Shown one piece after another: positions 9,616-61,910 of a stretch of 64,000 nucleotides of DNA (positions are counted from its first letter, which is position 1; every line of letters starts with the position of its first letter). The notes below the pieces were generated by a model. The model was not told where the DNA came from, did not search any database, and saw only the letters and a program-made list of their open reading frames with translations. The translations under genes were made by a program, and so were the position numbers. Location of the stretch: contig OZ024745.1 of the NCBI GenBank assembly GCA_964016885.1, positions 47,182,001 to 47,246,000 of the forward strand, in the 5' to 3' direction. Origin of the DNA: Eledone cirrhosa (taxonomy: Eukaryota).

Positions 9616-11029
9616 TTATAGATAGATAATGGTTTGAATGTGTTTGATTATGAGGCTAACAACAATAGGTAAGCATGAGTAGTTTATATAGATTAATCAT
9701 TATGACTCTCAGTTTAATATGATATTCTTTTATTCTTTTAGTGGTTTCAATCATTAGAGTGCAGTCATGCTTGGGCACTGCCTTCATGCAATTTAGCCTA
9801 TCATATGAGCCTTTTTTGTTGAACCACAAAGTTTCGGGAGATTAATAAACTATAAGTGTAAATACAGATACACAAATATATATATGCCAAGCAAGGAAAA
9901 TGGACATTGTGTTCTGCTGAAGCTACCTAAGATTTACATTAAAGATATGCATGTCTGTAAAATGCCCAGCTCCCTGCAAATTCATTTTACTACACCCTAA
10001 CCACTAAGCCATGTTCCTTCATAAATGTAGTCTCAAACGTATATCGCCCAACAAAAGACAATTGTATATAAATTGATAATACCCATTTAATTAGTTTAAA
10101 ATGTTAAACAAATGTATATATTTAATTAAAATATATTAATCAATAGTTTGCATTAAAATATTTGAATTAGATCTTATACTTTTACTGCTGCATATTTAAG
10201 ATATCAAGAATTAAATTTTAAACTTCTTTGATATATTTAATTAAAATATAATAATTAGTAGTTATATATTTAAAGAGGTAGGGTGGGCTGCAAGGAGCTG
10301 GGATGGTCTTGCTGCACTAAATGTATTTTAGAATTATTTTTTATTTATTCAATTCAGTGGTAAAATCTTCCTTTTCAAGCACCCAGGGTGGATAAAATAA
10401 ATATGAACAATACATTAGAATCACATTAATTAATTAAACCATTCACCTTGCAGAACAGATGATTCCATTTGATATTAAATTACCCAAAGCTGCACCTGCT
10501 TTTAAGATGTTTGTATTTAAAAATCTCCCATTATAATTTTATGTATGAACATTTTTTAAGTTATGCTCTAAACACCTGCTTACTGGAGAAAATGTTTGTT
10601 AATTTCTAAATCCCACTAAATATTTTCAAAATGCTTTTAAAGTCACAGGCAGTGACTTTCATTTGAATATAGTAATGAAATGGTCTAATAATGAAATATA
10701 ATATTTTCATTAAAAAAGTTTAATCAAGCATTAAATTTTAATGGTCATATTTGATATGAAAATTCATAACTTGTTCAGCTTTTAGATTTCAATTTACGAT
10801 TTAGAACTTGAGCATATATATGTGTATGTTTGTGTGTGTGTGTATATATAATATATATATCATCATCATCATTTTACGTCCACTTTTCCCTGCTTGCAAG
10901 GGTGGGCCGGGAACTGATTCTGGCTATATATATATATATATATAGCCAGATTCGTTTGCAAGCCTCAATTTTATAGCCATGTCAGTAGAATGAACACTTC
11001 ATTCTTGTTCTTATGTTGGCATGCCAACA

Positions 11030-11079
11030 GAACTGCAGACACTAATGTTTCTGGGTATCACCCTTCATCAGTACAGCTC
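11030..11079 (-). ncRNA. Type I hammerhead ribozyme (octamer family, copy 1)
   Basis: Minus strand GAGCTGTA-CTGATGA-A GGGT GAT ACCC A-GAAA-CATTAGTG-TC-TGCAGTTC: 8-bp stem I, intact core, GUC cleavage triplet. Identical motif at 52482-52531. Confidence 0.8.
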
Positions 11080-11191
11080 ACTGTTCACCTGCCAAACTGT
11101 CAGAGCTAGTGAAAATATATGCTATTTTCAAAAATACACAGTGACTGATCAGCCTGATTTGCATATTATTCAGCCATGTAGAGCGAAATTT

Positions 11192-11665
<474 letters not shown>

Positions 11666-13980: not shown

Positions 13981-14220
13981 CAAAATGTTTTATAAATATT
14001 TGACATGACCAAACATAATATACCTTGACGGGAACTGTTAAGGTATATTATCTTTTTTTGTACCCTTGAAATATATATAATAGAATAAATATGGTTTTAT
14101 AAATATAGTTTCCATTTATTTAATATCATTGAATACTTACTCCAGAAATCTGTCGAGTGCTCTGAATCAGTTATAAACATCTATATTTGTTGGATTTCCA
14201 ACAAATTAAATATCTCTTCT

Positions 14221-14252
<32 letters not shown>

Positions 14253-14300
14253 GTATACAAACATATATATTGGTCTCCGTCTGTATGTATATATATATAT

Positions 14301-16420
14301 AGTTGTGATGTCATTGGAGAGAAGTGTATCCGGAATGATAAAGGTGAGCTTGCCCTCACAAGTGCTGAGAAGAAAGATGCATGGAAGAGTCATTATGATA
14401 GATTACTAAATGAGGAGAATGCATGGGAAGAAGAGACCCTACCCCACGTAGACCCTATAGAGGGACCAGCAGTACAAGTCAGCGGCAGCGTAGTAAGTAA
14501 GGCAATCAGAGATATGAAGATCGGGTATAGCTGCCGAGATGCTGAAGGCATCTGGGTCTGTAGGTCACACTATAACCACACGTATCGTTAACCAGGTAAT
14601 ACTAGAGGGGGCCATACCAAAAGATTGGTGCAGTAGCATCATTGTCAACTGCTACAAAGGTAAAGGCGATGCACTAGATAGAGGAAACTATAGAGGTATA
14701 AAGTTGATGGACCAGGTCATGAAAGTAACAGAAAGAGTTATAGCACAGCTGATTAGGGACCGGGTGAATATAGACGAGATGCAATTTGGGTTTGTACCAG
14801 GGAAAAGCACCACTGATGCCCTCTTCCTTGTGAGGCAATTACAGGAAAAGTACCTAGCTAAAAGTAAGCCACTCTACTTGGCATTTGTCGACCTTGAGAA
14901 AGCCTTTGACAGAGTTCCACGTGCAGTAATCTGGTGGGCTCTTAGAAAACTAGGAGTAGATGAATGGCTTGTGAAAGCGGTACAAGCCATGTATAGGGGA
15001 GCAGTCAGCAAAGTTAGGATTAGCAATGAGTATAGCGAGGAATTTAGCGTACAGGTTGGGGTCCACCAGGGCTCTGTTCTTAGCCCTCTCCTGTTCATCA
15101 TAGTCCTGCAGGCAATAACGGAGGAGTTTAAGACCGGATGCCCATGGGAACTCCTGTATGCTGATGACCTCGCACTCATAGCTGAATCTATGGTAGAACT
15201 AGAGAATAAATTCCAAACCTGGAAGCAGGGACTAGAGAGAAAGGGCCTCAATGTCAACATGACAAAGACTAAGGTCCTTATAAGTAGACGAGAAAACAGA
15301 ACCCAGATCCCCTCAGGGAAATGGCCTTGCTCAGTATGTAGGAAAGGTGTAGGTAGGAACTCCATTCTCTGCCCCAAATGCAAACAATGGGTACACAAGA
15401 GATGTAGCGGGATCTCAGGAAGCTTAATTAAGAATGTAGGATTCACATGCAGCAGCTGTGCTGAAACAGCAAGCAAAAAGCCACAGGAAACAAGTACCAC
15501 CAATCTCTGGGAGGGCCCTGTAGAAACAGTAGACAGCTTCTGCTACCTAGGTGACCGAATTAGCAACGGAGGTGGGTGCTCAGAAAGTACAATAACTAGG
15601 GTAAGAACGGGATGGAAGAAGTTTAGGGAACTACTACCACTGCTAGCTGCAAAAGGCTTCTCCCTCAGAATGAAAGGCAGACTGTATGATGCGTGTATCC
15701 GAACAGCGATGTTGCATGGTAGTGAGACCTGGGCGCTGAAGGTGGAAGACTTACGTAGATTAGAGAGAAACGAAGCCTGCATGCTCCGATGGATGTGTAA
15801 CAGTAATATACATGAACGACAAAGCATAAAGGAATTGAGAGAGAGACTGAGCATAAGAGGAATCAAATGCTGCGTGCAGGAGAGGCGGTTATGCTGGTAT
15901 GGACATGTGATGCGTATGAAGGATGACAACTGCATAAAAAGGTGCAGAGCACTAGAAGTTGATGGAAACCGCGGAGTGGGGAGACCCAAGATGACTTGGG
16001 ATGAGGTGATAAAAGCCGACCTTACCCAACTACACCTCTCAAAGTCAATGACACACGACCGTGACTTCTGGCGTCACGCAGTAATACAGGGTACCCGACC
16101 TCCCATGGGTACATGCTGAAGCATATAAACAATATGCCCCTCCCCCCACCGCAAGGTGGTCGTGGAGGTGCCAAGGCAAAAAGCACCCAGCCCACACTGT
16201 AAAGTGGATGTGTAGGCGCCACGAAAAAGCACCCAGCACTCACTGTAAATGAGGTTGGTGTTAGGAAGGGCATCCAGCTGTAGAAATCAAGCCAGATCAG
16301 TTCCTGTACAAGCAAGGCATGGTCAGCCGACCAGACACTGCCCACAACAGGACAACCCGTCTAACCCATGCTAGCATGGAAGAACGGACGTAAAACGGTG
16401 ATGATGATGATGATGATGAT
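14301..16420 (+). mobile_element. RTE-clade LINE subfamily A, 5'-truncated, bounded by (TA)n on both sides
   Basis: RT ORF, 3'UTR and (GAT)n tail. A small deletion near 14520 relative to the 56.2-kb copy shifts the frame. Confidence 0.92.
14539..16119 (+). CDS. RTE reverse transcriptase (partial) with internal C4HC3 PHD finger
   Basis: KGKGDA...NYRGIKL, QFGF, FVDLEKAFDRV, GVHQGSVLSPLLF, YADD, FCYLGD, RLCWYGHVMR, GRPK..W. PHD CSVC..CPKC.QWVHKRC..CSSC at 15328-15459. Confidence 0.9.
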   Translation: MLKASGSVGHTITTRIVNQVILEGAIPKDWCSSIIVNCYKGKGDALDRGNYRGIKLMDQVMKVTERVIAQLIRDRVNIDEMQFGFVPGKSTTDALFLVRQLQEKYLAKSKPLYLAFVDLEKAFDRVPRAVIWWALRKLGVDEWLVKAVQAMYRGAVSKVRISNEYSEEFSVQVGVHQGSVLSPLLFIIVLQAITEEFKTGCPWELLYADDLALIAESMVELENKFQTWKQGLERKGLNVNMTKTKVLISRRENRTQIPSGKWPCSVCRKGVGRNSILCPKCKQWVHKRCSGISGSLIKNVGFTCSSCAETASKKPQETSTTNLWEGPVETVDSFCYLGDRISNGGGCSESTITRVRTGWKKFRELLPLLAAKGFSLRMKGRLYDACIRTAMLHGSETWALKVEDLRRLERNEACMLRWMCNSNIHERQSIKELRERLSIRGIKCCVQERRLCWYGHVMRMKDDNCIKRCRALEVDGNRGVGRPKMTWDEVIKADLTQLHLSKSMTHDRDFWRHAVIQGTRPPMGTC

Positions 16421-21586: not shown

Positions 21587-22238
21587 TTATGTAATATTCA
21601 GCTTGTAGTGGGAAAAAAGGGTTTTAGTTCGGTGACGGCAGAATAATGTTCGTTCAATTCTGTTATTCAGCAATTTCCTCTTGTGTGTGATTATGTAATA
21701 AATCTCAAGATTACACAATTTGCAGAAATTTTGGCTCCTGGAAAAGCTTTGGGTTTTAGCTAATTTCTCCCATTTTAGGGTAAACTTTTGATCGCTATCC
21801 CTGAGCGTCCAAGCTTTTTCTGCTAAAGTTGTTACATTTCTTTGGCTCTGGTGTTTTATTGAGTAAGAATGCCCATATAATCGAGATTTAAACGATGTTG
21901 CCGTTGATCCCACGTAATACCACTCGTTGCCTCCGGATTTAATGGTACACTTATAAATAATATTTTTTTCCAGGCAGTTATTGCCGAGGGGGCAGTTGTT
22001 AGGATAGGTGCAGTTACAGTTGTGTACGTTGGGTTTTCTCTGGAGTAGTATTGCGGACGAACTTAGGTGTGGTTTATTTATGTTCTGTAGTGTATTGTCT
22101 ACTGTTTTTTTTGTGTTCTTTTTACTTAAGTTTTTAGTGTTTTCGTTTAACCTTCTAGTATTGATCTTTTTTATGTGTTGTTCAAGGTTTAACGCTGTAG
22201 AGTATGACAGTCTTATAGTGGTAGGGTTTAGGATTTTT
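21587..22238 (-). CDS. Penelope-like element (Neptune-type) C-terminal GIY-YIG endonuclease, 5'-truncated
   Basis: IRLSYS..NL...[26 protein letters not shown]...[15 protein letters not shown]...TTLA...W...CKLCNLE...LLNNR.E...CRHR. The first ~45 aa of the ORF-track call are microsatellite. Confidence 0.88.
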
Positions 22239-22239
22239 A

Positions 22240-22293
22240 TATGTATATATATATATATATGTATGTATATATATATGGATATGTATGTATATA

Positions 22294-22366
<73 letters not shown>

Positions 22367-22896
22367 ATACATGTCTAACCCATGCTAGCGTGGAAGATGG
22401 ACGTTAAACGAAGATGATGATGTATATATATATATGTATATATATGTATATATATATATATATATGTATATATATGTATGTATATGTATATATATATGTA
22501 TGTGTATATATATGTATATATATATATGTATATATATATATGTATATATATATATGTATATATATGTATGTGTATATATATGTATATATATGTATATATA
22601 CATACATATATATACATATATACATACATGGACACACTAGAAGAGGAAGACCAAGGTTAACGTATGTTGATGCCCTAAGGACAGACACTGGTCTGTTGGA
22701 GATGCAGGACATGGCAGCGATAATGAGGGACAGAGACAACTGGAGAGAACTCGTCCATGGATCTCGGGAATTTTACCCGCCTTAGATAGATAGATATATA
22801 TGTATGTATATATATATGTATATATATATATGTATATATATATGTATATATATATATATCTATAAATATATATACATGTATATATATATGCATACA

Positions 22897-34982: not shown

Positions 34983-36905
34983 TATTGTGTAACAAAAATT
35001 TTTTTTCTCTCTGTTCCTGGCTTGTAATCACTTTTTTTGTGTTGCTTAGGTCCCAAATAAATAAAAAAAAGTGCTATCAAACAGTTAAAAGTTTGGGTTT
35101 GTAAAAATTCTAAGCTATTCACTAGAATTATTTGTATGCTGGATTTTACGTTGTATGTAAGTTTAATTTGCTTATGTTAAATGATTCTTTTATATATGTT
35201 TCAGGTTAAATTAAAATGATAAAATAAAGAGTAATACCTAAAGAAAATGATAAAAGTGCAATAAAGTATAAAATTGTTAAAAAATGGATTAAAGAGATTT
35301 ATTGATACTGGATTTTCGCACCCTGAATAAAGAGTAAGTTGTGTTTTAAGCATTCGTCTCCAGGATGAAGCAGTGGAACTTGGCCAAGGAGGAAGTGCAG
35401 GTGACAAGTCAGAGAAGTTGACACAAACCTTTCTCGGGCTTTTACACTCTTAGGGATGGCCTCTGCTTCTGCCATGATGTGCCTGGACTGTTTGACGTTA
35501 TTGGGTGCCGTTTGTGCCCAAGGAGTGGCGGCTATTTATAGACAGCTCCACCACAAGTTTGAAGGCTGTCCTCCTCCACAATGGAAACAAGCTCCCGACA
35601 CTGCCATAGCTCATTCAGTCTGCCTGAAGGAAGATTACTACAGTGTGAAAGTCCTCTTGGAAGCTCTGCAATACAACCAGTACAATTGGGAAATCATTGG
35701 AGACTTCAAGATGGTGGCTTTCCTGCTTGGACTCCAAGGAAGCTTTATCAAATTCCAATGCTTCCTCTACCTTTGGGACAGCAGAGCCACCTCTGACCAC
35801 TACAAAAGAAAGAACTGGGAGCAGCGAACAGAATTTGTAGTTGGGACCCGGAACGTCATGTGGGAGCCACTGGTTGATCCCAGGATTGTGCTCATGCCGC
35901 CACTGCACATTAAGTTGGGGTTGATGAAGCAGTTTATGAAGGTTCTCAACCAAGAATCAGCCGCTTTTAAGTACCTTCTTGAGTTCTTCCCCAAGTTATC
36001 TGAGGCCAAAATCAAAGGTGGAATTTTTGTTGGACCTCAGATAAAGAAGGTGTTTGAGTCTACCGAGTTCTCCAATAAGCTCAATAGGATTGAGAGAACA
36101 GCATGGAACTGTTTCAAGGCAGTTGTTAAGGGTTTCCTGGGCAACTACAGAGCTGAAAACTACCAGCAACTGGTGCAGAATCTGATAAAGGCTTTTGGCA
36201 CCATGGGATGCAGGATGTCGCTTAAACTCCATATGCTGGATGCTCACCTGGAAAAATTCAAGGACAATATGGGCGCCTACTCAGAAGAACAAGGCGAACA
36301 ATTCCACCAAGATGTGAAAGAGATAGAGCGGAGGTACCAGGGCCACTACAATGAAAAAATGATGGGGGACTATATCTGGAGTCTAGTGCGGGAATGCGAC
36401 CTGGACTACAACCGCAAATCCAGGAAATCCAGTCATTTCTGACGTGTATAAGTTGCTTTATAAGTGTTATTTGTTTTTACTTGTTTGCTTTTGATAAGCT
36501 TGTGTAATAAAATAAATATATACTCTGTTGATTTAATTATATGAACTGATAAATTTTTTTAAAATGTGTTTTTTCTTGAAAAATATGAGAATTTCGAAAT
36601 ATCAAACTCCTGACCTCAAACCCAAACTTCTGATTAAATAATAGTGTTTCTTTTATAATAATTGTTTCCACTTTTGGCACAAGGCCATCAATTACCCAGT
36701 ACATTATTGGTACTTTATTTTATCGATCCCGTAAGGATGAAAGGCATAGTTAACCTCGGGGGGATTTGAACTCAGACCGTAAAGGGACGTAACTATGCTG
36801 GAAAGCATGGCGTCCGACCCTCTACCGATACTGCCAATCCTCCGGGATATAACAAACCAGGAAATGACACTTAGAACCGGGGAACAAAAAATATGTTACA
36901 CGGTG
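34983..36905 (+). mobile_element. Chapaev3-like DNA transposon, internally deleted, with SINE insertion (36657-36842, minus)
   Basis: Imperfect TIRs tattgtgtaacaaaaatttttt / aaaaaatatgttacacggtg, plus sub-terminal ttcctgg.ttgt, around a transposase ORF. Confidence 0.7.
35456..36442 (+). CDS. Chapaev3-type DDE transposase, C-terminal part (homology from ~35600)
   Basis: GDFKMVAFLLGLQ..F.K..CFL..WDSRA, PPLHIKLGLMK, FPKLSEAKIK.GIFVGPQI, MSLKLH.L..H, SEEQGE.FHQD, RYQG, MMGDY.WSL. Confidence 0.8.
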   Translation: MASASAMMCLDCLTLLGAVCAQGVAAIYRQLHHKFEGCPPPQWKQAPDTAIAHSVCLKEDYYSVKVLLEALQYNQYNWEIIGDFKMVAFLLGLQGSFIKFQCFLYLWDSRATSDHYKRKNWEQRTEFVVGTRNVMWEPLVDPRIVLMPPLHIKLGLMKQFMKVLNQESAAFKYLLEFFPKLSEAKIKGGIFVGPQIKKVFESTEFSNKLNRIERTAWNCFKAVVKGFLGNYRAENYQQLVQNLIKAFGTMGCRMSLKLHMLDAHLEKFKDNMGAYSEEQGEQFHQDVKEIERRYQGHYNEKMMGDYIWSLVRECDLDYNRKSRKSSHF

Positions 36906-48518: not shown

Positions 48519-51500
48519 CATCATCATCATCATCATCACCGTTTTACGTCCATTCTTCCACGCTAGCATGGGTTAGACGAGTTGCCCTGTTGTTGGCAGT
48601 GTCTGGTCGGCTGACCTTGTCTTGCTCATACAGGAACTGATTCTGGCTTGATTTCTACAGCTGGATGCCCTTCCTAACACCAACCTCATTTACAGTGAGT
48701 GCTGGGCGTTTTTTTTCCGTGGCTCCTACACGTCCACTTTACAGTGTGGGCTGGGTGCTTTTTTGCCATGGCACCTCCACGATCACCTTGCAGTGGGAGG
48801 GTGTGGGGGCATATTGTCTATATGCTTCAGCTTGTACCCATGGGAGGTCGGGTACTCTGTATTACTGCGTGACGCCAGAGGTCTCGGTTGTGTGTCATCG
48901 CCTTTGAGAGGTGTAATTAGGTAAGGTCGGCTTTTATCACCTCATTCCAGGTCTTCTTGGGTCTCCCCACTCCGCGGTTTCCATATATATATATAACAAC
49001 ACAAACACAGGAATGTAAAAGCATAAAGTCTTATTCGTATCATGCTTAGGGGGAAGTAGAAGAGAGTTTGCGGGTTCGCCACTTTGGATGTAAGTCCTTC
49101 TTCAGGACCTGATATATGTGGGCTGGTTGTTTTTTTGCCGTGGCGCCTCCACGACCACTTTGCAGTGGGAGGGGGTGGGGGCATATTTCTATATGCTTCA
49201 GCTTCGGCTTGTACCCATGGGGGGGAGGGTCAGGTCTTCTGTATTACTGCGTGACGCCAGAGGTCATGGTCGTGTCTCATCGCCTTTGAGAGGTGTAATT
49301 GGGTAAGGTCAGATTTATCCCCTCATCCCAGGTCTTCTTGGGTCTCCCCACTCCACGGTTTCCATCGACTTCTAGTGCTCTGCACCTTTTTATGCAGCTG
49401 TCATCCTTCATACGCATCACATGTCCATACCAACGCAACCGCCTCTCCTGCACACAGCGTTTGATTCCTCTTATGCTCAGTCTCTCACTCAATTCATTTA
49501 TGCTTTGCCGTTCACGTATATTACTATTACACATCCATCTGACCATGCAGGCTTCGTTTCTTTCTAATCTACGCAAGTCTTCCACATTCAGCGCCCAGAT
49601 CTCACTACCATGTAACATTGCTGTTCGTATACACGCATCATACACTCTGCCTTTCATTTTGAGGGAAAAGCCTTTTGCAGCTAGCAGTGGCAGTAGTTCT
49701 CTGAACTTCTTCCATCCCGTTCTTACCCTAGTTATTGTACTTTCTGAACACCCACCTCTGCTACTAATTTGGTCACCTAGGTAGCAGAAGCTGTCTACTG
49801 TTTCTACAGAGCCCTCCCAGAGATTCGTTGTACTTGTTTCCTGTGGCTGTTTGCTGCTTGCTGTCCCAGCACAGCAGCTACATGTGAAGCCTATATTCTT
49901 AATTAAGCTTCCTGGGATCCCGCTACGTCTCTTGTGTACCCATTGTTTGCATTTGGGGCAGAGAATGGAGTTCCTACCTACACCTTTCCTACATACTGAG
50001 CAAGGCCATTTCCCTGAGGGGATCTGGGTTCTGTTTTCTTGTCTACTTACAAGGACCTTAGTCTTTGTCAGGTTGACTTTGATACCCTTTCTTTCTAGTC
50101 CCTGCTTCTAAGTTTGGAATTTCTTCTCTAGTTCTACCATAGATTCTGCTATAAGTGCGAGGTCATCTGCATACAGGAGTTCCCATGGGCATCCAGTCTT
50201 AAACTCCTTCATTATTGCCTGCAGGACTATGATGAACAGGAGAGGGCTAAGAACAGAGCCCTGGTGGACACCGACCTGTACGCTAAATTCCTCGCTATAC
50301 TCATTGCTAATCCTAACTTTGCTGACTGCTCCCCTATACATGGCTTGTACAGCTTTCACAAGCCATTCATCTACTCCTAGTTTTCTAAGAGCCCACCAGA
50401 TTACAGCACGTGGAACTCTGTCAAAGGCTTTCTCGAGATCGACGAATGCCAGGTAGAGTGGCTTACTTTTAGCTAGGTACTTTTCCTGTAACTGCCTCAC
50501 AAGGAAGAGGGCATCAGTGGTGCCTCTTCCTGGTACAAACCCAAATTGCATCTCATCTAGTTTCACCCGGTCCCTAATCAACTGTTCTATAACTCTTTCT
50601 GTTACTTTCATGACCTGGTCCATCAACTTTATATCTCTATAGTTTCCTCTATCTAGTGCATCCCTTTTACCTTTGTAGCAGTTGATAATGATGCTACTGC
50701 ACCAATCTTTTGGTATGACACCTTCTAGTATTACCTGGTTAACAATACGGGTGGTTATAGTGTGACCTACAGACCCAGATGCCTTCAGCATCTCGGCAGC
50801 TATACCTGATGGACCGGTTGCCTTCCCCATCTTCATATCTTTGATTGCCTTACTTACTACGCTGCTGCTGACTTGTACTGCTGGCCCCTCTATAGGGTCG
50901 ATTTGGGGTAGGGTCTCTTCTTCCCATGCATTCTCCTCATTTAGTAATCTATCATAATGGCTCTTCCACGCATCTTTCTTCTCAGCACTTGTGAGGGCAA
51001 GCTCACCTTTATCATTCTGGATACACTTCTCTCCAATGACATCACAATTCTCTCTGACACACTGCCTCGGAATCTTGAACACCTCCTGTTTCTGGTCCTC
51101 ACGTTGCAAAACATGCTTGAATTTTCTATCCTTTGCTTCCCTCCTAGCTAAGTATACTTGTCGCCTAGCTTCCCTCCTGGTCTCTATGTAATGTACCCTG
51201 CTCCCCCCGTTCTTCTATTCTTTCCATGCCTGTCTCTTGGTCTTAACTGCCTCATCTACCTTATTGTTCCACCACCAAGTCACTCTCCTCCTGCCTGTGG
51301 TTTTACTCCAGCCACAGACCTCATCCGTCGCCTCTAGTAAGTTATTTTTTAGGAATTCCCAGTGCTCTTCTACATTGAATGTCTCTATCTGTTCTTCTTT
51401 ACTGTCGAGGGCGTTGAGTAAAATATCTTTAAATCTGTTACTGGCTGAGGGGTCTTTCAGCTTCCAGATCTTTCTTCTCCAGGTTGGCCTCTATTTCCAG

Positions 51501-51945
51501 GTTCGTCTAGTTCTGACCGTTAGGTCGCTGACAACTAAGTTTTGTTGGGAGGTACATTCCTCACTAGGGTAGGGTAGGCTTTTGTGTTTACGACCGTCCA
51601 TCTGTCACGTCCTCTGATGAGGATAAAATCTATTTGACTAGAATGCTCCCCTGATCTATAGGTTTATCAGGTGGTTGTCGGGTTTTTGAAGTTTGTGTTA
51701 CATATTGACATGTCATTGGCGTCGCAGAATTCTAGAAGCCTGAATCCTTCTTCATTTCTTGTGCCAACCCCATGGACTCTATTGAAGCTGTCACAGTGTT
51801 TACTTACGTGTCCGTTAAAATCTCCTGCAATGATTAGGAAGTCATTGTCGTTTGTTAGAGCAGTAGTGTGCATTAGGGACTCGTAAAACCTATCCTTAAG
51901 TTCGTCTGGCAACCCCGATTGGGGTGTGTAAGCTGATATTATTGT
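48519..51945 (-). mobile_element. RTE subfamily A, longest copy (partial APE + RT + PHD; stops/frameshifts) with duplicated 3' segment
   Basis: APE IISAYTPQ..GDFNGHV..RNEEGFRLLEFC (51667-51945); RT 50108-51109; C-terminus 49277-49657; separate 3' piece 48519-48983. Confidence 0.92.
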
Positions 51946-52210
51946 ATCTCTGGCAAATTTTTGTTTTAAGTGGTAGCATTCCAGTGACAATTAATTTTCT
52001 TTATACATTAAAAATAATTATACATGACAAAGAAAGTACATTACTATAAATCCCTTCCATTATAAAATAAATAAGATGGTTTGGAGTCTCAATATGTAAA
52101 CTAAACGACTAATTGTGGTTTTAAAAAATCAATGGAGACACCTAAAAAAATTACGGATTTTCCAATTTCCACCTCGCTTATTTCAACTTTCCCACTTATT
52201 CCCTTCCTAT

Positions 52211-52250
<40 letters not shown>

Positions 52251-52481
52251 ATATATATATGCATATATATATATGTGTGTGTGTATATATATATAATATA
52301 TATATACATACACACACAGTATATATATATATATATATATATAAATGTAATCTGAGTTTTTTGAATATTAATAATAACATTCGATTCGTTTGCAATTATG
52401 CAAACAAGCCTCATTTTTATTTTTAAAGCCATGTCAGTAGAATGAACCCTTCATTCTTGCTCTTGTGTTGGCATGTAAACA

Positions 52482-52531
52482 GAACTGCAGACACTAATGT
52501 TTCTGGGTATCACCCTTCATCAGTACAGCTC
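52482..52531 (-). ncRNA. Type I hammerhead ribozyme (octamer family, copy 2)
   Basis: Identical to 11030-11079. Confidence 0.8.
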
Positions 52532-52832
52532 ACTGTTCACCTGCCAACTGTCAGAGCTAGTGAAAATATATGGTATTTTCTAAAATATACAGTAACTGAT
52601 TGGCCTGATTTGCATATTAGCAGACTGGCTGATCAGTCAGATCTGCATATTAGCAGATCCACTGGTCAGATTTGCATATCAGCAGACTGGCCAGTCAGTT
52701 TCCTGTATACGAGCGATAAATGGCTGGCTTTGCCATATTTAAATAAATTAAAAAAAAAGATTTTCGCTCTACATGGCTGAATACAATAAATGTAATCTGA
52801 GTTTTTTGAATATTAATAATAACATTTGATTA

Positions 52833-52949
<117 letters not shown>

Positions 52950-52955
52950 TATATA

Positions 52956-52986
<31 letters not shown>

Positions 52987-53093
52987 GCATATATATATAT
53001 ATGTGTATATATATGTGGATATATATATATGTGTGTATATAAATATATATATATATATACATATATATATGCATATATATGTGTGTGCATATA

Positions 53094-53143
<50 letters not shown>

Positions 53144-53535
53144 GAAAGAAGGTTTACATGGTTTGCTATACAAAAAAGTTTTTAATCACATAGCTTACAT
53201 TCGTTTCACTGAACTGGTATGTCTAGAGATCGCTATCCGCCTAATTTTGCGTCACTCGATCGCCAATACAGAATTATAACCAGTCAGATCTTCGGAGCAT
53301 GCGAGAATGAAGAAAATACACAGGCAAGAAAATAAAAGAAAATATGGAGTAGTTATGGCATTCAATTAGAACAATAAACAACAACAATTATTACAACAAT
53401 GCTATCAATAAACTATTTAAGGAGACCCTGACATTACTTAGGTGGGGGGTATATAATGTATCTAATGTTACGGCGTGAAAACCAGCTGTCATAAGGCAAA
53501 AAGTATCGTAGTGTGTATCAATTTTAAATTATAAC

Positions 53536-53958
53536 AACTGTCACCTCCCAGATAGGTGCCCATTGGCGAATAGATGTCTCGATTCGAGTCTGGTGTACAT
53601 GTGCACTGTCATCTCGGGTAACTCCACTTGGAATTACATAGGATCCACCGCGGGTTCTTTTAAGAAAAGATGGTATGTGCACAGGCACTCGATGAAAAAC
53701 CGAGCTCTTATGGGTTCCACCACCCTCGCCAGAAAAATATGGGAATTGAAGGACAGCAACGCTAGCTACACTATCAACTGGTCGAAGTTGTCGGCTGCTA
53801 AAACCTATAGTACAGGTATGTCCTATTGCGGGCTGTGTGATCTTGAGCTATTGTATATCCTTAGAAATGTTAAAAGACTACTTAATAATAAGTTAGAAAG
53901 ATCTATCTTCTGCAGGCATAGAATAGCCACTAAATTCATAAGATTCAAACCTCCGTGA
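53536..53958 (+). CDS. Neptune-type GIY-YIG endonuclease fragment
   Basis: CHLPDRCPLANRCLDSSLVYMCTV...NYIGST..FKKRWYVH..S...TTLA..IW...CGLCDLE...LLNNK.E..IFCRHR. Confidence 0.88.
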   Translation, partial: NCHLPDRCPLANRCLDSSLVYMCTVISGNSTWNYIGSTAGSFKKRWYVHRHSMKNRALMGSTTLARKIWELKDSNASYTINWSKLSAAKTYSTGMSYCGLCDLELLYILRNVKRLLNNKLERSIFCRHRIATKFIRFKPP

Positions 53959-54292
53959 ATCGAACCAACATAACATAGCTTTAAATTAGGATACCTACTA
54001 CCCACAAAAAAAATATATATTCATTAAGTATACTATTTCCTTCACAAGTCTATACCACACAATAGTCTGTAAATACCTCATCTACCAACAATCTTACTCC
54101 TTCTCAGCTGCTGCAATCATTTGATCCTAGATCCTAGTTTTTCTCATTTCACTACTACAATGTTACTTTACCTTCTTTTTGCCATATTACAATTAGCACG
54201 CTTTTCTCTTTGCATGTATGTATATTTTTGTACGAGTGTATATTAGTGTGTATGTATGTGTCTATGTACACATATATGTGTATATGTATTTA

Positions 54293-54365
<73 letters not shown>

Positions 54366-54720
54366 AGATATATGCGTATATTAATTCGTTAACCTCTGTA
54401 TTAACTCTACAACTATTGAGCTTTGACAGTGGTCCCACTCATGTATACGGTTGAAGATGAAGAGAAAGACTGTAAAAACTAGCTTATCTTTATAATTTAA
54501 AATTGATACACACTACGATACTTTTTGCCTTATGACAGCTGGTTTTCACGCCGTAACATTAGATACATTATATACCCCCCACCTAAGTAATGTCAGGGTC
54601 TCCTTAAATAGTTTATTGATAGCATTGTTGTAATAATTGTTGTTGTTTATTGTTCTAATTGAATGCCATAACTACTCCATATTTTCTTTTATTTTCTTGC
54701 CTGTGTATTTTCTTCATTCT

Positions 54721-54837
54721 CGCATGCTCCGAAGATCTGACTGGTTATAATTCTGTATTGGCGATCGAGTGACGCAAAATTAGGCGGATAGCGATCTCTA
54801 GACATACCAGTTCAGTGAAACAAATGTAAGCTATGTG
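54721..54837 (+). ncRNA. Penelope pLTR hammerhead, CCGAAGA core, 81-nt stem II (mirror copy 53187-53303, minus)
   Basis: CGCATGCT-CCGAAGA-T-CTGACTGGT...ACCAGTTCAG-T-GAAA-CAAATG-TA-AGCTATGTG. Confidence 0.65.
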
Positions 54838-55056
54838 ATTAAAAACTTTTTTGTATAGCAAACCATGTAAACCTTCTTTCCTGATTTATTATTACTCCAA
54901 GTGTTTACAACATAGGAATTACAGCATACCCGCAGCATCACTATGAAAACGCCTTGTTGAGTCAAACCAAGCCAAGCGTTAATATCATCCACTACCTGGA
55001 ATACCATAACTGGACTTCACCTAAGTGGACTGCATTTAACTATTATTTGTTAATCC

Positions 55057-55097
<41 letters not shown>

Positions 55098-55101
<4 letters not shown>

Positions 55102-55517
55102 AGTTTAGGAATAACCAAAGAGTGCTTAGATATACATTGTTTTATTTGCTAACAGTGTTTCATCCATACCCGAGGGCAGGTATCATCAGAGCTTATAATG
55201 AAAGGTTGCAGGCTCCATCGAGCCTAGTCACCAGAACAAGGAAATAGGACGAGTAGGGGGGTCCCAGGCCAGCGCTGTATAGAGCAACACATAATAATTG
55301 ATACATGTATTGTGTGTTGCTCTATACAGCGCTGGCCTGGGACCCCCCTACTTGTCCTTCTTCCTTGTTCTGGCGACTAGGCTCGATGGGGCCTGTAATC
55401 TTTGATATATTTTTATTTATAGGCTTCGATGATTCCTGTCCTAGAGTATGGATGACACACTGTTAGCAAATAAAACAATGTATTTGTCAGCACTCTTTGG
55501 TTATTCCTAAACTTATA
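55098..55517. repeat. ~420-bp palindrome carrying hammerhead motifs in both arms
   Basis: Arms are mirrored about ~55301. Minus: GCT-CTGATGA...GAAA-CACTG-TT-AGC (55148-55192); the plus copy is degenerate (TCGATGA...GACA, 55423-55467). Confidence 0.8.
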
Positions 55518-55643
55518 ACGGCTCTGTAGTATACTAGTTATCCTACATTGAGCTAAAACCACACTGTCATACCAAGGACAATATATCTGTGTGTCTGTGC
55601 ACATTAGTATAATTGTCAACGAAACTATATATATATATACACC

Positions 55644-55709
<66 letters not shown>

Positions 55710-55711
<2 letters not shown>

Positions 55712-58192
55712 AGAAACATTTAATGTAGAAGAGAACTGGGAGTTCCTAAAAAATAATTTACTAGAGGCGACGGATGAGGTCTGTGGCTGGAGTAAGACCT
55801 CAAGCAGGAGGAGAGTGACTTGGTGGTGGAACAATAAGGTAGATGAAGCAGTCAAGGCCAAGAGACAGGCATGGAAAGAATGGAAGAACGGGGGGAGCAG
55901 GGTACATTACATAGAGACCAAGAGGGAAGCTAGGCGACAATATACTTAGCTAGGAGGGAAGCAGAGGATAGAAAATTCAAGCATGTCTTACAACGTGAGG
56001 ACCATAAACAGGAGGTATTCAAGATTGCGAGGCAGTGTGTCAGAGATAGTTGTGATGTCATTGGAGAGAAGTGTATCCGGAATGATAAAGGTGAGCTTGC
56101 CCTCACAAGTGCTGAGAAGAAAGATGCGTGGAAGAGTCATTATGATAGATTACTAAATGAGGAGAATGCATGGGAAGAAGAGACCCTACCCCAAGTAGAC
56201 CCTATAGAGGGACCAGCAGTACAAGTCAGCGGCAGCGTAGTAAGTAAGGCAATCAAAGATATGAAGATGGGGAAGGCAATCGGTCCATCGTGTATAGCTG
56301 CCGAGATGCTGAAGGCATCTGGGTCTGTAGGTCACACTATAACCACACGTATCGTTAACCAGGTAATACTAGAAGGGGACATACCAAAAGATGGGTGCAG
56401 TAGCATCATTGTCAACTGCTACAAAGGTAAAGGCGATGCACTAGATAGAGGAAACTATAGAGGTATAAAGTTGATGGACCAGGTCATGAAAGTAACAGAA
56501 AGAGTTATAGCACAGCTGATTAGGGACCGGATGAAAATAGACGAGATGCAATTTGGGTTTGTACCAGGAAGAGGCACCACTGATGCCCTCTTCCTTGTGA
56601 GGCAATTACAGGAAAAGTACCTAGCTAAAAGTAAGCCACTCTACTTGGCATTTGTCGACCTTGAGAAAGCCTTTGACAGAGTTCCACGTGCTGTAATCTG
56701 GTGGGCTCTTAGAAAACTAGGAGTAGATGAATGGCTTGTGAAAGCTGTACAGCCATGTATAGGGGAGCAGTCAGCAAAGTTAGGATTAGCAATGAGTATA
56801 GCAAGGAATTTAGCATACAGGTTGGGGTCCACCAGGGCTCTGTTCTTAGCCCTCTCCTGTTCATCATAGTCCTGCAGGCAATAACGGAGGAGTTTAAGAC
56901 CGGATGCCCATGGGAACTCCTGTATGCTGATGACCTCGCACTCATAGCTGAATCTATGGTAGAACTAGAGAATAAATTCCAAACCTGGAAGCAAGGACTA
57001 GAAAGAAAGGGTATCAAAGCCAACATGACAAAGACTAACGTCCTTGTAAGTAGACGAGAAAACAGAACCCAGATCCCCTCAGGGAAATGGCCTTGCTCAG
57101 TATGTAGGAAAGGTGTAGGTAGGAACTCCATTCTCTGCCCCAAATGCAAACAATGGGTACACAAGAGATGTAGTGGGATCTCAGGAAGCTTAATTAAGAA
57201 TGTGGGATTCACATGCAGCAGCTGTGCTGAGACAGCAAACAGCAAACAGCCACAGGAAACAAGTACCACCAATCTCTGGGAGGGCCCTGTAGAAACAGTA
57301 GACAGCTTCTGCTATCTAGGTGACCAAATTAGCAACGGAGGTGGGTGTTAAGAAAGTGCAATAACAAGGTTAAGAATGAGATGGAAGAAGTTTAGGGAAC
57401 TACTACCACTGCTACATGCAAAAGGCTTCTCCCTCAGAATGAATGGCAGACTGTATGATGCGTGTATCCGAACAGCGATGTTGCATGGTGGTGAGACCTG
57501 GGCGCTGAAGGTGGAAGACTTACGTAGATTAGAGAGAAACGAAACCTGCATGCTCCGATGGATGTGTAACAATAATATACGTGAACGACAAAGCATAAAT
57601 GAATTGAGAGAGAGACTGAGCATAAGAGGAATCAAATGCTGTGTGCAGGAGAGGCGGTTGCGCTGGTATGGACATGTGATGCGTATGAAGGATGACAGCT
57701 GCATAAAAAGGTGCAGAGCACTAGAAGTTGATGGAAACCGCGGAGTGGGGAGACCCAAGATGACCTGGGATGAGGTGATAAAAGTCGACCTTACCCAATT
57801 ACACCTCTCAAAGACAATGACACACGACCGTGACTTCTGGCGTCACGCAGTAATACAGAGTACCCAACCTCCCATGGGTACAAGCTGAAGCATATAGACA
57901 ATATGCCCCCCACACCTCCCACCGCAAGGTGGTCGTGGAGGTGCCACGGCAAAAAAGCACCCAGCCCACACTGTAAAGTGGACGTGTAGGCGCCACGAAA
58001 AAGCACCCAGCACTCACTGTAAATGAGGTTGGTGTTAGGAAGGGCATCCAGCTGTAGAAATCAAGCCAAATCAGTTCCTGTATGAGCAAGGCATGGTCAG
58101 CCGACCAGACACTGCCCACAACAGGACAACCCGTCTAACCCATGCTAGCGTGGAAGAACGGACGTAAAACGGTGATGATGATGATGATGATG

Positions 58193-58282: not shown

Positions 58283-61003
58283 TCATCATCATCATCATCA
58301 TCATCGTTTAACGTCCATCTTCCACGCTTGCATGGGTCTGGACGGGAGTTCCCCCACTTGAGGCAAGAGTGCTATCTTGCTCGTATAGGACTGTCTGGCG
58401 GGTTTTCTACGGCTGGATGCCCTTCCACGTTTACAGTGTGGACTGGGAGGTTTTTACCGTGTTACCTACATGGCCACATTACAGCGTGGACTGTGTTTTT
58501 TTTTATCGTGACACCTACACGACCTCATTTGTTTCGGACTGGATGTTGTGGTGCCAACATAACTTTACATCGAAAGGGGTGGTGTGGATGGGGTGTGGGT
58601 AGTGGGACGGGGTGTATTTTTGTTAGAGGTGCCTACTGACTGTAGTAGGTTTCACTTTGTACTTAGGTAAGGCGGGTCTTCTGTATTACTGTGTAGCGCC
58701 AAAGATCTCGGTCCAGTGACATTGTCTTGGAGAGGTGTAAGTGTGTGAGGTCGGAATTTATCAAGTCGTCCCAGGTTTTTATGGGTCTGCCTACTCCGTG
58801 GCTACCGTCTATTTTTATCGCCCTGCACTTTTTTATACAGCTGTCTTCTTTCATGCGCATCACGTGACAGTACCAATGTAGTCTTCTCTCGAGTAAACAA
58901 CATCTGATCCCTCTTATTTCTAATTTTTCCCTTAGTTCATTTATGCTTTGCCGTTCACGTATATTACTATTACACATCCAGCAGAGCATGCAAGCTTCGT
59001 TCCTCTCCAGTCTGCGTATATCCTCTGCACACAATGCCCAGGTCTCACTGCCATGTAACATTGCTGTTCGTATGCAGGCATAATACAGCCTGCCTTTCAT
59101 ATTTAGGGAGAACCCTTTAGCGGCTAATAGTGGTATAAGCTCTCTGAACTTTTTCCATCCAGTTCTGACTCTAGCTACTGTACTTTCAGAGCACCCTCCC
59201 CCACTGCTGATTTTGTCACCCAGGTAACCCAGATAACGGAAGGTGTCCACTATTTCTATAGAACCATCTGTGCAATGGAATGAGCTAGTATTCTGTGGGC
59301 ACTTGCTGCTACTTATTGCACCAGAGCACCGGCCACATATAAAATCTATGTTCTTAGTTAGCTTAGCTGTGATACCACTACATCTTTTATGCACCCATAC
59401 TTTGCATTTGGGACATAAAATGGAGTTTCTACCTACTCCTTTCCTACACCCTGAGCATGGCCATTTCCCGGATGGGACCGGTGCCCTATTTTCCTTCCTA
59501 CAAACTAGAACTTTAGTCTTAGACAGGTTAATTTTAAGGCCTTTTGATTCTAGGCCATGCTTCCATGTTTGGGATTTCTTCTCTAGTTCGGCCATTGATT
59601 CAGCTATGAGCGTTAGATCATCTGCGTATAGGAGTTCCCATGGGCAGCTGGTCTTGAACTCCACTGTTATAGCCTGAAGGGCAATAATAAATAGTAGGGG
59701 GATAAGAACAGAGCCCTGATGAACACCAACTTTTACGCTAAACTCTTCACTATATTCGTTGTTAATTCTAACCTTGCTGACTGTTTCTTTATACATGGCT
59801 TGTATAGCTCTCACAAGCCATTCATCAACACCTAGTTTTCTAAGAGCCCACCAGATAATGGAACGGGGGACTCTGTCGAAGGTTTTCTCCAAAGTCGACA
59901 AAAGCTAAGTATAGGGGTTTACACTTTTAGCTAGGTACTTCTCCTGTAGTTGTCGTACAATGAAAAGAGCGACTGTGGTACTTTTACCTGACACAAACCC
60001 GAACTGCATTTCATCTAGATCAATTCTCTCTCTGATTAGTTGCGCTATTACTTTTTCTGAGACCTTCATGACCTGGTCGATTAATTTAATGCCTCTATAG
60101 TTACTCCTATCTAGGGCATCTCCTTTACCCTTGTAGCAGTTAATGATGATGCGGCTACGCCAGTCCTTCGGAACAACCCCATTCTGTATGACTTGGTTTA
60201 CTATCCGGGCATCCATGGTGTGTCCCACCGTTCCAGAAGCTTTCAGCATTTCAGCAACTAGTTCCGAAGGCCCAGCCGCCTTTCCCGTCTTCATATCTTT
60301 GATTGCCTTACTTATTATACTACCTTCGACTAACACTGCTGGTCCCTTTATTGGATCGATGTGGGGGAGACTGTCTGTCTCCCATTTATTCTCCTCATTT
60401 AGTAGCCTTTCGTAGTGACACTTCCAAGCTACCTTCTTATCAGCGTCAGTGATGGCAAGTACACCATCATCATTAAGGACACACTTCTCCCCGACAATAT
60501 CACAGTTTCCCTTGTCCCATTGCCTAGCAAACCTGAACAGCTCACTTTTTTGGTCCTCACTTTTTTAGTCCTCTGCTTCCCTTCTTGCGAAGTACACTTG
60601 TCCCCTAGCTTCCCTCCTGGCCACTTGATAGTCTTCTCTACTTCCCCCATCCCGCCATACTTTCCAAGCCTGCTTTTTGGCCTTAATTGACTCCTCCACC
60701 TTACTGTTCCACCACCACGTTACTCTCCTCCTACCTATAGGCCTGCTCCAGCCACAGACTTTGTCTGTCGCCATCAGCAGGTTTGCTTTCAGGAATTCCC
60801 ACTGTTCCTCTATATTGTACGACTCTAAATGCTCTTCCTTACTGTCGAAAGCATCAAGTAATATGCTTTTAAATTTATTACTGGCTGTGGAGTTTTTTAG
60901 CTTCCATATTTTTCTCCTGAGGATAGTCCTCTTCTGTTGTCGAGTACGTCTCGTCCTGACTATGAGGTCGCTAATTATCAGTCTATGTTGGGAGGTGCAT
61001 TCT
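58283..61003 (-). mobile_element. RTE subfamily B copy, frameshifted
   Basis: ORFs 59905-60336 and 58663-59901 (YADD; PHD CSGC..CPKC.VWVHKRC..CGRC). Confidence 0.92.
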
Positions 61004-61065
61004 TGTGTGTGTATGTATATATATATATATATATATATGCATATATATATATGTGTGTGTGTATA

Positions 61066-61607
61066 TCATCATCAACATCATCATCATCATCATCATTTTA
61101 CGTCCGCTTTTCCCTGCTTGCAAGGGTTGGACGGGTCGTATTCAGCACACCATCTCTCCACTTGTCACGGACCTTCATCATCTCCTCGGTGAGTTTCAGC
61201 GATCTGAGGTCTGCTCTCACCACCTCCGCCCATGTTTTCCGTGGTCTACCACTACTGCATCTTCCTTCTACTGGGATTTCTGGGCACTTCTTTACCCAGC
61301 GATCATCCATGTGCATCACATGTCCATACCATCTCAGCCTTCTTTCCTGCACACCACAACTTATCCCTCTTATACCCAGTTTCTTTCTCAACTCGTCTAT
61401 GCTTGGTCGTTCACGCACATTGGCCTTGCACATCCAACGGAACATACTTGCTTCATTTCTCTCCAGCCATCGCATATCTTCTGCAGTTGCTGCCCATGTC
61501 TCACTACCATGCAGCATTGCGCATCTCACACAGGCATCATATAACCGTCCTTTCGTATGCAGAGAGAAACCCTTCTTTGTCAACAGAGGAAGCAGCTCCC
61601 TAAACTT
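61066..61607 (-). mobile_element. RTE subfamily C 3' fragment
   Basis: KFRELLPLLTKKGFSLHTKGRLYDAC...RLRWYGHV...GRPRKTW; very short 3'UTR. Confidence 0.85.
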
Positions 61608-61910
61608 ATCATCATCATCATCTTCATTTAACATCATACTAGCATGGGTTAGACGGGAGTTGTCCCATTTGAGGCAAGGTTGGTCGGGTGACTGTATCTC
61701 GCTCATATAGGACTATCTGAGCGAGACACGGTCACCCGACCAACCTTGCCTCAAGTGGGACAACTCCTGTCTAACCCATGCTAGCGTGGAAAATGGACGT
61801 TAACCGAAGATGATGATGATGATGATAAGTTTAGGGAGCTGCTTCTTCTGTTGACAAAGAAGGGTTTCTCCCTGTGTACGAAAGGATGGTTATATATATA
61901 TATACATATA

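What the first reader, a model, noticed from the sequence alone, without database searches (positions are those of the whole stretch)
52341..52831. Retrozyme-like unit 2: 445-bp period, triple octamer repeats upstream of an intact hammerhead
Seen: 46-bp terminal direct repeats (52341-52386 / 52786-52831), i.e. one monomer plus a partial second, inside (TA)n. On the ribozyme strand, three ~30-bp subrepeats carry ATGCAAAT (52677-52670), ATGCAGAT (52648-52641) and ATGCAAAT (52615-52608), the last ~85 nt before CTGATGA; there is no ORF. Inference: a copy reverse-transcribed from a circular or multimeric RNA, carrying its own POU/Oct-responsive promoter. Convergence with unit 1 in size and octamer spacing suggests a shared design, and such units could also disperse POU-binding sites.
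Basis: partly seen in the sequence, partly recalled or inferred. Interest (0 to 1): 0.85.

Follow-up and report, generated by a model that had tools for sequence, protein, structure and literature searches.

The report
Retrozymes carrying host snRNA-type promoters
This is one of thousands of copies of a 445-bp non-coding repeat with a hammerhead ribozyme motif; it and three sister families carry the same upstream box as the host's U6-type small-RNA genes, so they likely bring their own promoter and are likely copied by a Penelope-type retrotransposon enzyme.

Summary
The unit is an old, 1.1-monomer copy of a high-copy non-LTR retrozyme family (1,104 exact hammerhead-core matches genome-wide).

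The 46-bp repeat is not a target-site duplication. Copies end at two fixed sites running into (TA)n, and 57 of 60 classifiable inverted insertions use one of each. This is the Penelope 'tail' signature. 5' ends pile up at the ribozyme cut (18 of 55 arms), implying cleavage in vivo.

The octamer is better read as a host promoter box. The same 13-bp box lies at -76 to -79 in this genome's U6, U6atac, MRP and tRNA-Sec genes, and 87-100 nt before the hammerhead in four retrozyme families, followed by TATA. This family adds a U1/U2/U5-type box. Spacing is 1-6 bp short of the host's and templates read through T-runs, so the polymerase is open. The three octamers are a local triplication, not independent sites.

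A sister family has insertions of 20 near-identical units across both inverted arms, as expected from rolling-circle reverse transcription; this family shows at most 2.7 units. No RNA data were available. Known class with a newt satellite 2 precedent; the promoter layout and copying signatures are new detail.

The parts
52387..52831 (-). One 445-bp monomer (m1-m445), 36% GC, non-coding
   Evidence: folds at -150.8 kcal/mol, z -9.8 against 100 dinucleotide shuffles
52341..52386 (-). Start of a second monomer (m1-46), ending at the family's first fixed 3' end (site S1) and running into (TA)n
   Evidence: 45 of 46 identical; 89 of 215 position-chosen arms end at m36-56
52603..52617 (-). Proximal octamer box matching the host Pol III type-3 upstream box
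   Evidence: 16.8 bits on a matrix of 7 host promoters (leave-one-out 13.7-20.1), 0 of 300 shuffles
52641..52677 (-). Two upstream duplicates of the octamer module (m155 exact; m184 variant, G in most copies)
   Evidence: 10.9 and 7.3 bits; subrepeats; column counts
52585..52602 (-). U1/U2/U5-type proximal box (starts m232, 15 nt after the octamer start)
   Evidence: 13.5 bits, best site in the unit, 4 of 1,000 shuffles; host offsets -56 to -59
52566..52571 (-). TATA-like element, 45 nt after the octamer start
   Evidence: 0.97 column conservation
52540..52551 (-). Predicted transcription start zone (m281-292), inferred
   Evidence: host spacing gives m288-295; long copies end at m280-294, four second-lap arms at m285
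52470..52545 (-). Type I hammerhead with extended helix I; core 52523-52490; predicted cut between 52490 and 52489
   Evidence: sequence; fold; 5'-end pile-up at m343-352
52586..52711 (-). Predicted long RNA hairpin formed by the triplicated promoter module
52750..52758 (-). T9 run at the family's second fixed 3' end (site S2); internal in this copy
   Evidence: 72 of 215 arms end at m66-104
52214..52343 (.). (TA)n target tract at the 3' end
52836..53140 (.). (TA)n tract at the 5' end

Best explanation
This is a decayed, 1.1-unit copy of a high-copy non-coding hammerhead repeat (non-LTR retrozyme) that carries host snRNA-type promoter boxes, is likely transcribed from them, and is likely copied into (TA)n tracts by a Penelope-like reverse transcriptase. 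Shown: copy number, two fixed 3' ends, inverted arms, 5' ends at the cut site, match of the boxes to host genes. Inferred steps: (1) In copies of about 1.6 units or more, the octamer + proximal box + TATA starts an RNA near m281-292, just before the hammerhead. Pol II is favoured (about 60:40) because copied RNAs run through T4-T9 tracts. (2) The RNA crosses two hammerheads; about a third of templates are cut at a given site, and double cuts could release a 445-nt monomer able to circularise. (3) A Penelope-like RT/endonuclease, probably of the Hydra clade, nicks both strands of (TA)n and primes internally at two sites about 40 nt apart, giving direct partial tandems and inverted arms. (4) Each new copy longer than about 275 nt carries the promoter along. 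The window copy has a promoter but only one hammerhead, so it would be a dead end.
For: Family size: 1,104 exact matches to the 34-nt core and 3,286 to a 20-nt motif, reversed controls 0. 3' ends: 89 at S1, 72 at S2, 54 other among 215 position-chosen arms; of 115 inverted pairs, 60 had both ends classifiable and 57 of those use one site each. This matches the two internal RT starts and both-strand extension shown for an Anolis PLE (PMC11167929, parts 1-2 of 4 read). An autonomous 785-aa element with Hydra-type motifs (PMC8557442 passages) is young and abundant and also ends at two sites in (TA)n. Cut-site pile-up: 18 of 55 arms end at m343-352, Fisher p 4e-8 against flanking bins. Promoter: box at -76 to -79 plus TATA at -30/-31 in 7 host Pol III promoters; the same matrix scores 15.8-19.9 bits in four retrozyme families and at most 3.8 in 19 Pol II snRNA promoters; 5 of 25 hammerhead clusters carry the box. 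Second-lap 5' ends: 9 of 11 stop at m281-310, p 1e-7 against the background hazard, while only 8 of 87 stop there in the first lap. Six of 25 two-hammerhead copies keep the box ahead of the first ribozyme.
Against: No transcript or cleavage was observed. Box-to-TATA spacing is 42-45 nt in the four families against 46-48 in all 7 host genes, and the second half of the host element is not matched (-3.5 bits). The AATTA element present in 19 of 19 Pol II snRNA promoters and the distal element are absent from the unit. Only 3 of 17 U6-like and 1 of 5 U6atac-like loci printed had the box; I treated the rest as retrocopies. The most upstream copy ends (m280-285) lie 3-10 nt before the start predicted from spacing. 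No DNA similarity links the unit to the one autonomous PLE family examined, so the partner is unidentified. The hammerhead is a variant that Rfam does not score. One 20-unit insertion of family C has a broken octamer in every unit, so the box is not needed in the copied molecule. The second-lap wall could instead reflect loss of long repeats.
Confidence: 0.7

Rival explanations
1. Same element, but copied mainly from a 445-nt circular RNA by rolling-circle reverse transcription; long arrays later collapsed by recombination because the family is old.
For: 37 of 55 arms pass the cut site. Sister family C has insertions with up to 20 hammerheads in which 18 of 18 complete units are identical across both inverted arms, while arrays at different loci differ by 3-32 changes. 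The unit folds very stably. Laps within a copy mostly share subfamily variants. Direct repeats longer than about 200 bp recombine more readily (recalled, not tested), which coincides with the wall.
Against: The longest copy found is 2.7 units (L373). 5' ends cluster at the cut in both laps and at m280-285. One site shows a directional difference between laps (9 against 1), suggesting two-unit masters (alignment ambiguity not excluded).
Confidence: 0.35
2. The promoter is a true U6-type Pol III promoter making a roughly 235-nt RNA that ends at the T9 run; long templates come from leaky termination or host read-through.
For: Best match is to the Pol III box in all four families. There is no T4 run for 228 nt after the start in this family and for 316 nt in unit 1 (shuffle probabilities 0.30 and 0.04). 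Site S2 coincides with the T run.
Against: 79 of 83 first-lap arms continue past the start zone into T4-T9 tracts. Spacing is short and the second half-element is missing. A Pol II-type box sits at the equivalent position.
Confidence: 0.3
3. The boxes are passengers: the unit is transcribed only by read-through from host promoters, and the triplication was kept for RNA structure.
For: A review states that retrozymes seem to lack promoters (PMC7761336 passage). The triplet forms a long hairpin. Octamers are not more conserved than flanks among copies. An array with a broken box exists.
Against: The box and TATA keep the same place before the hammerhead in four families, of which only A and C show weak DNA similarity; 20 of 25 hammerhead clusters lack it; long copies end near the predicted start.
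Confidence: 0.15
4. The unit is only the terminal repeat of a coding Penelope-like element, or the 46-bp repeat is a target-site duplication.
For: PLE-like protein fragments occur in 23 of 250 loci of this family, including beside the window copy.
Against: Those hits cover different parts of the protein at 29-54% identity in mixed orientation (19 checked). Head-to-tail units have no ORF between them. The 46 nt are internal sequence in other copies and recur as a 3' end.
Confidence: 0.04

Closest known systems
Metazoan non-LTR retrozymes (Cervera and de la Pena 2020, PMC7229834; preprint 10.64898/2026.07.22.740005)
   Same: 150-450-bp low-GC head-to-tail units with a type I hammerhead with short helix III, no coding region, co-occurring with PLEs.
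   Different: Those papers suggest but do not show PLE mobilisation by end structure, and a review says retrozymes seem to lack promoters (PMC7761336). Here four families carry host promoter boxes and PLE-type paired ends. Circular RNA was shown there and is untested here.
Newt satellite 2
   Same: A hammerhead repeat with an internal snRNA-type promoter transcribed by Pol II (as cited in PMC2220036). That it uses an octamer plus a proximal sequence element is recalled; the original paper was not held.
   Different: Here the octamer abuts the proximal box as in the host's Pol III genes, is triplicated, and copies are short dispersed insertions in (TA)n. Sequence homology was not tested; convergence is likely.
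Penelope-like elements, Hydra clade (PMC8557442) and Anolis Poseidon (PMC11167929)
   Same: (TA)n targeting, partial tandems, inverted 5' arms, two internal RT start sites, hammerhead near the terminus.
   Different: No ORF and no DNA similarity to the autonomous family examined. 5' ends pile up at the cut, whereas no reads ending at the cut were seen for the Anolis element.
Host Pol III type-3 (U6, U6atac, MRP, tRNA-Sec) and Pol II snRNA (U1, U2, U5) promoters of G000
   Same: 13-bp octamer box of the first group; proximal box of the second; TATA-like element.
   Different: A mosaic of the two, with shorter box-to-TATA spacing, without the distal element and without the AATTA element.

Membership tests
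non-LTR retrozyme | Type I hammerhead in each unit | tested here: met
   Core and helices I-III by inspection; variant with an extra A each side of stem II; no Rfam match
non-LTR retrozyme | Short low-GC unit in head-to-tail repeats | tested here: met
   445 bp, 36% GC; 25 copies with two hammerheads 420-460 nt apart among 250 loci; up to 2.7 units. The window copy itself has one hammerhead and fails the preprint's 'active' criterion.
non-LTR retrozyme | No protein-coding region | tested here: met
   No conserved frame among 30 copies
non-LTR retrozyme | No LTR, primer-binding site or polypurine tract | not tested
   Not searched for specifically; ends lie in (TA)n
non-LTR retrozyme | Expressed, self-cleaved and circularised RNA | not testable with these tools
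   No RNA run was listed; indirect support from 5' ends at the cut and from family C arrays
PLE-mobilised element | Two internal RT start sites (tail), inverted 5' arms, microsatellite targets | tested here: met
   57 of 60 classifiable inverted pairs; 15 of 17 in family C
PLE-mobilised element | Terminal sequence shared with an autonomous partner | tested here: inconclusive
   None with the one family examined (10 copies); many other PLE families were not examined
pLTR of a coding PLE | Unit consistently adjoining an RT-endonuclease ORF | tested here: not met
   23 of 250 loci have heterogeneous fragments in mixed orientation
U6-type Pol III promoter | Upstream octamer box | tested here: met
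   16.8 bits, 0 of 300 shuffles
U6-type Pol III promoter | Second half of the element and 46-48 nt spacing to TATA | tested here: not met
   -3.5 bits; spacing 45
U6-type Pol III promoter | Termination at T runs | tested here: not met
   Most copied templates cross T4-T9 runs
Pol II snRNA promoter | Proximal box at -56 to -59 | tested here: met
   13.5 bits, 4 of 1,000 shuffles; not significant in unit 1
Pol II snRNA promoter | AATTA element near -90 and distal element near -260 | tested here: not met
newt satellite 2 | Sequence homology | not tested
   No sequence available; works-like comparison only

The most novel reading that the evidence does not exclude
This genome hosts a class of at least four retrozyme families that took over the host's snRNA/U6 promoter module, making them self-expressing circular-RNA replicons. 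A dimeric Hydra-clade Penelope enzyme primes both DNA strands on the same RNA at two fixed sites and, in the young family, rolls around one circle up to about 20 times. That would be direct genomic evidence for the long-proposed retrozyme life cycle and would name its promoter and its enzyme class.
Probability: 0.45. Interest if true: 0.78.

Novelty: new variant of a known kind. Interest (0 to 1): 0.6.

Why it matters
How animal retrozymes are transcribed and which enzyme copies them has been proposed but not shown in the papers read; one review says they seem to lack promoters. Here both questions become testable in one genome: a defined promoter module, a predicted start, two priming sites shared in kind with a young autonomous Penelope-like element, and a sister family whose identical multimer insertions read like rolling-circle products. 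If the boxes bind a POU factor, these families also spread such sites: 4 of the 6 exact octamers in this window lie in them. Function of those sites is untested.

Tried and rejected
Rfam found no hammerhead. The run search gave 'no RNA holder listed'; laying two runs of unknown kind showed only many divergent copies and is used neither for nor against expression. Three look-ups of earlier findings returned nothing. Pfam and solved-structure searches gave nothing for the 785-aa ORF; the Atlas placed it near GIY-YIG/RT clusters, and the clade call rests on motifs. A direct pattern search for three-unit arrays was not possible, so the maximum array length rests on the top 40 hits of two DNA searches and could miss longer, more diverged arrays. 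Fourteen U6-like and four U6atac-like loci without the box were left out of the matrix as presumed retrocopies; the Pol II matrix used 15 of 19 promoters after dropping near-duplicates. Ten loci duplicating a neighbouring insertion or flank were dropped before the end counts (five each). The T-free stretch after the start is not significant in this family (p 0.30). Family C showed no significant pile-up at its cut (5 of 43, p 0.13) and only 3 of 43 ends in its start zone. The family A score used a truncated slice and was redone. Selection on octamers after insertion was not detected. Literature: ten searches were run (one more errored and was resent); retrozyme + promoter + polymerase III + snRNA gave 0 papers, and satellite 2 + salamander + octamer + proximal sequence element gave 0. 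Subscription papers and preprint supplements were not visible and may hold such a description. The organism was not determined.

Full report
Coordinates. m1-m445 number the monomer on the ribozyme (minus) strand; window position = 52832 minus m. G000 is a 3.0-Gb assembly whose snRNA genes and repeats mark it as an animal; the organism was not determined.

Observation. The 46-nt repeats, 445-nt spacing, three subrepeats and octamer positions are as described. The hammerhead core is complete by inspection, with a long helix I and a 3-bp helix III, but stem II has an extra A on each side and Rfam does not score it. An extra base between positions 9 and 10.1 is common in PLE hammerheads (PMC4209133 passages). 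No frame is conserved among 30 copies. The monomer folds far better than shuffles (z -9.8), and the octamer triplet forms one long hairpin.

Family. There are 1,104 exact matches to the 34-nt core and 3,286 to a 20-nt motif nearer the 3' end. The closest copies are about 92% identical to the window copy. Successive laps within a copy differ at 1,341 of 18,139 sites, so the family is old.

3' ends. Among 215 arms from loci chosen by position, 89 end at m36-56 (S1), 72 at m66-104 (S2) and 54 elsewhere, many of those at an inserted SINE-like repeat. Both sites run into (TA)n. The 46-bp repeat is therefore the start of a second lap, not a target duplication. Of 115 inverted pairs, 60 had both ends classifiable and 57 use one site each. 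Family C does the same in 15 of 17 inverted insertions. An Anolis PLE protein nicks and extends both strands and starts internally at two sites that define the genomic tail (PMC11167929, parts 1-2 of 4). A young autonomous element here has a 785-aa ORF with RWK, DKT and YRDD motifs typical of the Hydra clade, a hammerhead terminal repeat and two 3' ends in (TA)n across 10 copies. It shares no DNA similarity with family B. PLE-like fragments near 23 of 250 family B loci are heterogeneous and in mixed orientation, so the unit is not a coding element's pLTR.

5' ends. In 74 arms anchored downstream of the ribozyme, 18 of 55 at risk end at m343-352, immediately inside the predicted cut, against about 6% per 10 nt in flanking bins (p 4e-8). 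The simplest reading is that cut RNA served as template about a third of the time. In 87 arms anchored on the core, 8 end at m283-312 in the first lap; of 17 entering well into the second lap, 6 end at m332-363, and 9 of the remaining 11 end at m281-310 (p 1e-7). This fits a linear RNA starting near m281-290 and holding two hammerheads. The rival is that longer repeats were lost by recombination in an old family. Copies beyond this wall exist; the longest found is 1,222 nt.

Promoter. I took upstream regions of host small-RNA genes. U1, U2 and U5 share a box at -56 to -59, an AATTA element near -90 and a TATA-like element. Three distinct U6 promoters, U6atac, RNase MRP and two tRNA-Sec genes instead have an octamer-containing 13-bp box at -76 to -79 and TATA at -30/-31. 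Only 3 of 17 U6-like and 1 of 5 U6atac-like loci printed had it; I treated the others as retrocopies. A matrix from the 7 promoters scores 13.7-20.1 bits leave-one-out and at most 3.8 on 19 Pol II promoters. It scores 16.8 at m217, 19.9 in family A, 18.3 in C and 15.8 in D, in each case the best site of the unit (0-1 of 300 shuffles), 88-100 nt before the hammerhead, with TATA 42-45 nt downstream. In a scan of about 1.06 Mb of fetched DNA, 5 of 25 hammerhead clusters had the box and 20 did not. Only A and C show weak DNA similarity. Family B also has a Pol II-type box at m232 (13.5 bits, 4 of 1,000 shuffles) and a second at m166, so each subrepeat is a copy of the promoter module. Against a plain Pol III reading: spacing is short, the second half-element is missing, and 79 of 83 arms continue through the start zone into T runs. 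Against a plain Pol II snRNA reading: no AATTA or distal element. I favour an snRNA-class promoter used by Pol II for the long templates. That the octamer binds a POU factor follows from general knowledge and is untested.

Circles. Family C (5,142 core matches) is young. One insertion has 7 hammerheads on one strand and 13 on the other, with 18 of 18 complete units identical, 468 bp long and sharing a broken octamer. Other arrays have their own variants, 3-32 changes apart, with within-array identity of 12 of 18, 6 of 6, 4 of 6 and 3 of 4; one four-unit array (L425) had three distinct units. Its 5' ends are scattered. One circular molecule copied repeatedly from both primers explains this best; local homogenisation or assembly polishing are not excluded. 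Family B shows no such arrays, so a circle is plausible for it but not shown.

Comparison. The element meets the testable features of non-LTR retrozymes (PMC7229834, passages and Discussion). A 2026 preprint (parts 1-3 of 5 read) argues from co-occurrence and similarity that these are non-autonomous PLE derivatives. A review states that they seem to lack promoters and conserved motifs pointing to a partner (PMC7761336 passages). Newt satellite 2 is a precedent for an internal snRNA-type promoter (cited in PMC2220036, passages; the octamer detail is recalled). Searches found no paper with retrozyme, promoter, polymerase III and snRNA together; the library lacks most subscription papers.

Verdict. 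A real, ordinary member of a known class as a single copy, and probably inactive. The surrounding picture is more interesting: a host-type promoter module kept in four families, PLE-type paired priming, in vivo cleavage marks and rolling-circle-like arrays in a sister family. All of it is inferred from DNA alone. New variant of a known kind; interest 0.6.

Noticed in passing
window 10959-11213: Second, truncated copy of the same family, with one octamer, the hammerhead and a short inverted arm ending at site S2.
   Followed up: partly
   Followed up: partly
L470-L473 (G000:C1:30.83 Mb and 56.39 Mb): Family C (465-468 bp, 5,142 core matches): inverted insertions of 20 or more near-identical units; in L470 every unit has the same broken octamer.
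   Followed up: yes
L428-L439: Family D, period about 340 bp, older, with the same box and TATA before its hammerhead.
   Followed up: partly
L275-L284; fragment at window 21587-22384 (-): Young, very abundant Hydra-like Penelope element with a 785-aa ORF, hammerhead terminal repeat and two 3' ends; two copies begin at the ribozyme cut.
   Followed up: partly
window 53141-55800: Another PLE-like insertion sharing the (TA)n tract: endonuclease fragment 53512-53958 (+), inverted repeats and a minimal hammerhead at 55157-55189 (-) without the box.
   Followed up: partly
L010, L049, L050, L056, L076, L081, L089 and others: A SINE-like repeat is inserted repeatedly at m12-29 of this family with a short duplication, which accounts for many 'other' 3' ends. 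Its tRNA origin is my impression, not tested.
   Followed up: no
L380; L196, L200, L201, L377, L378: A U6atac piece is fused to an antisense copy of this family, and several U6/U6atac copies sit beside (TA)n, suggesting the same machinery copies host small RNAs.
   Followed up: no
L381: The RNase P RNA gene has the U1/U2/U5-type box rather than the Pol III box.
   Followed up: no
window 14166-16119, 49277-51990, 55934-57888, 58663-61712: Decayed LINE-type reverse transcriptase fragments; one scored as RVT_1.
   Followed up: no
window 35405-36442 (+): 345-codon frame with no Pfam match.
   Followed up: no
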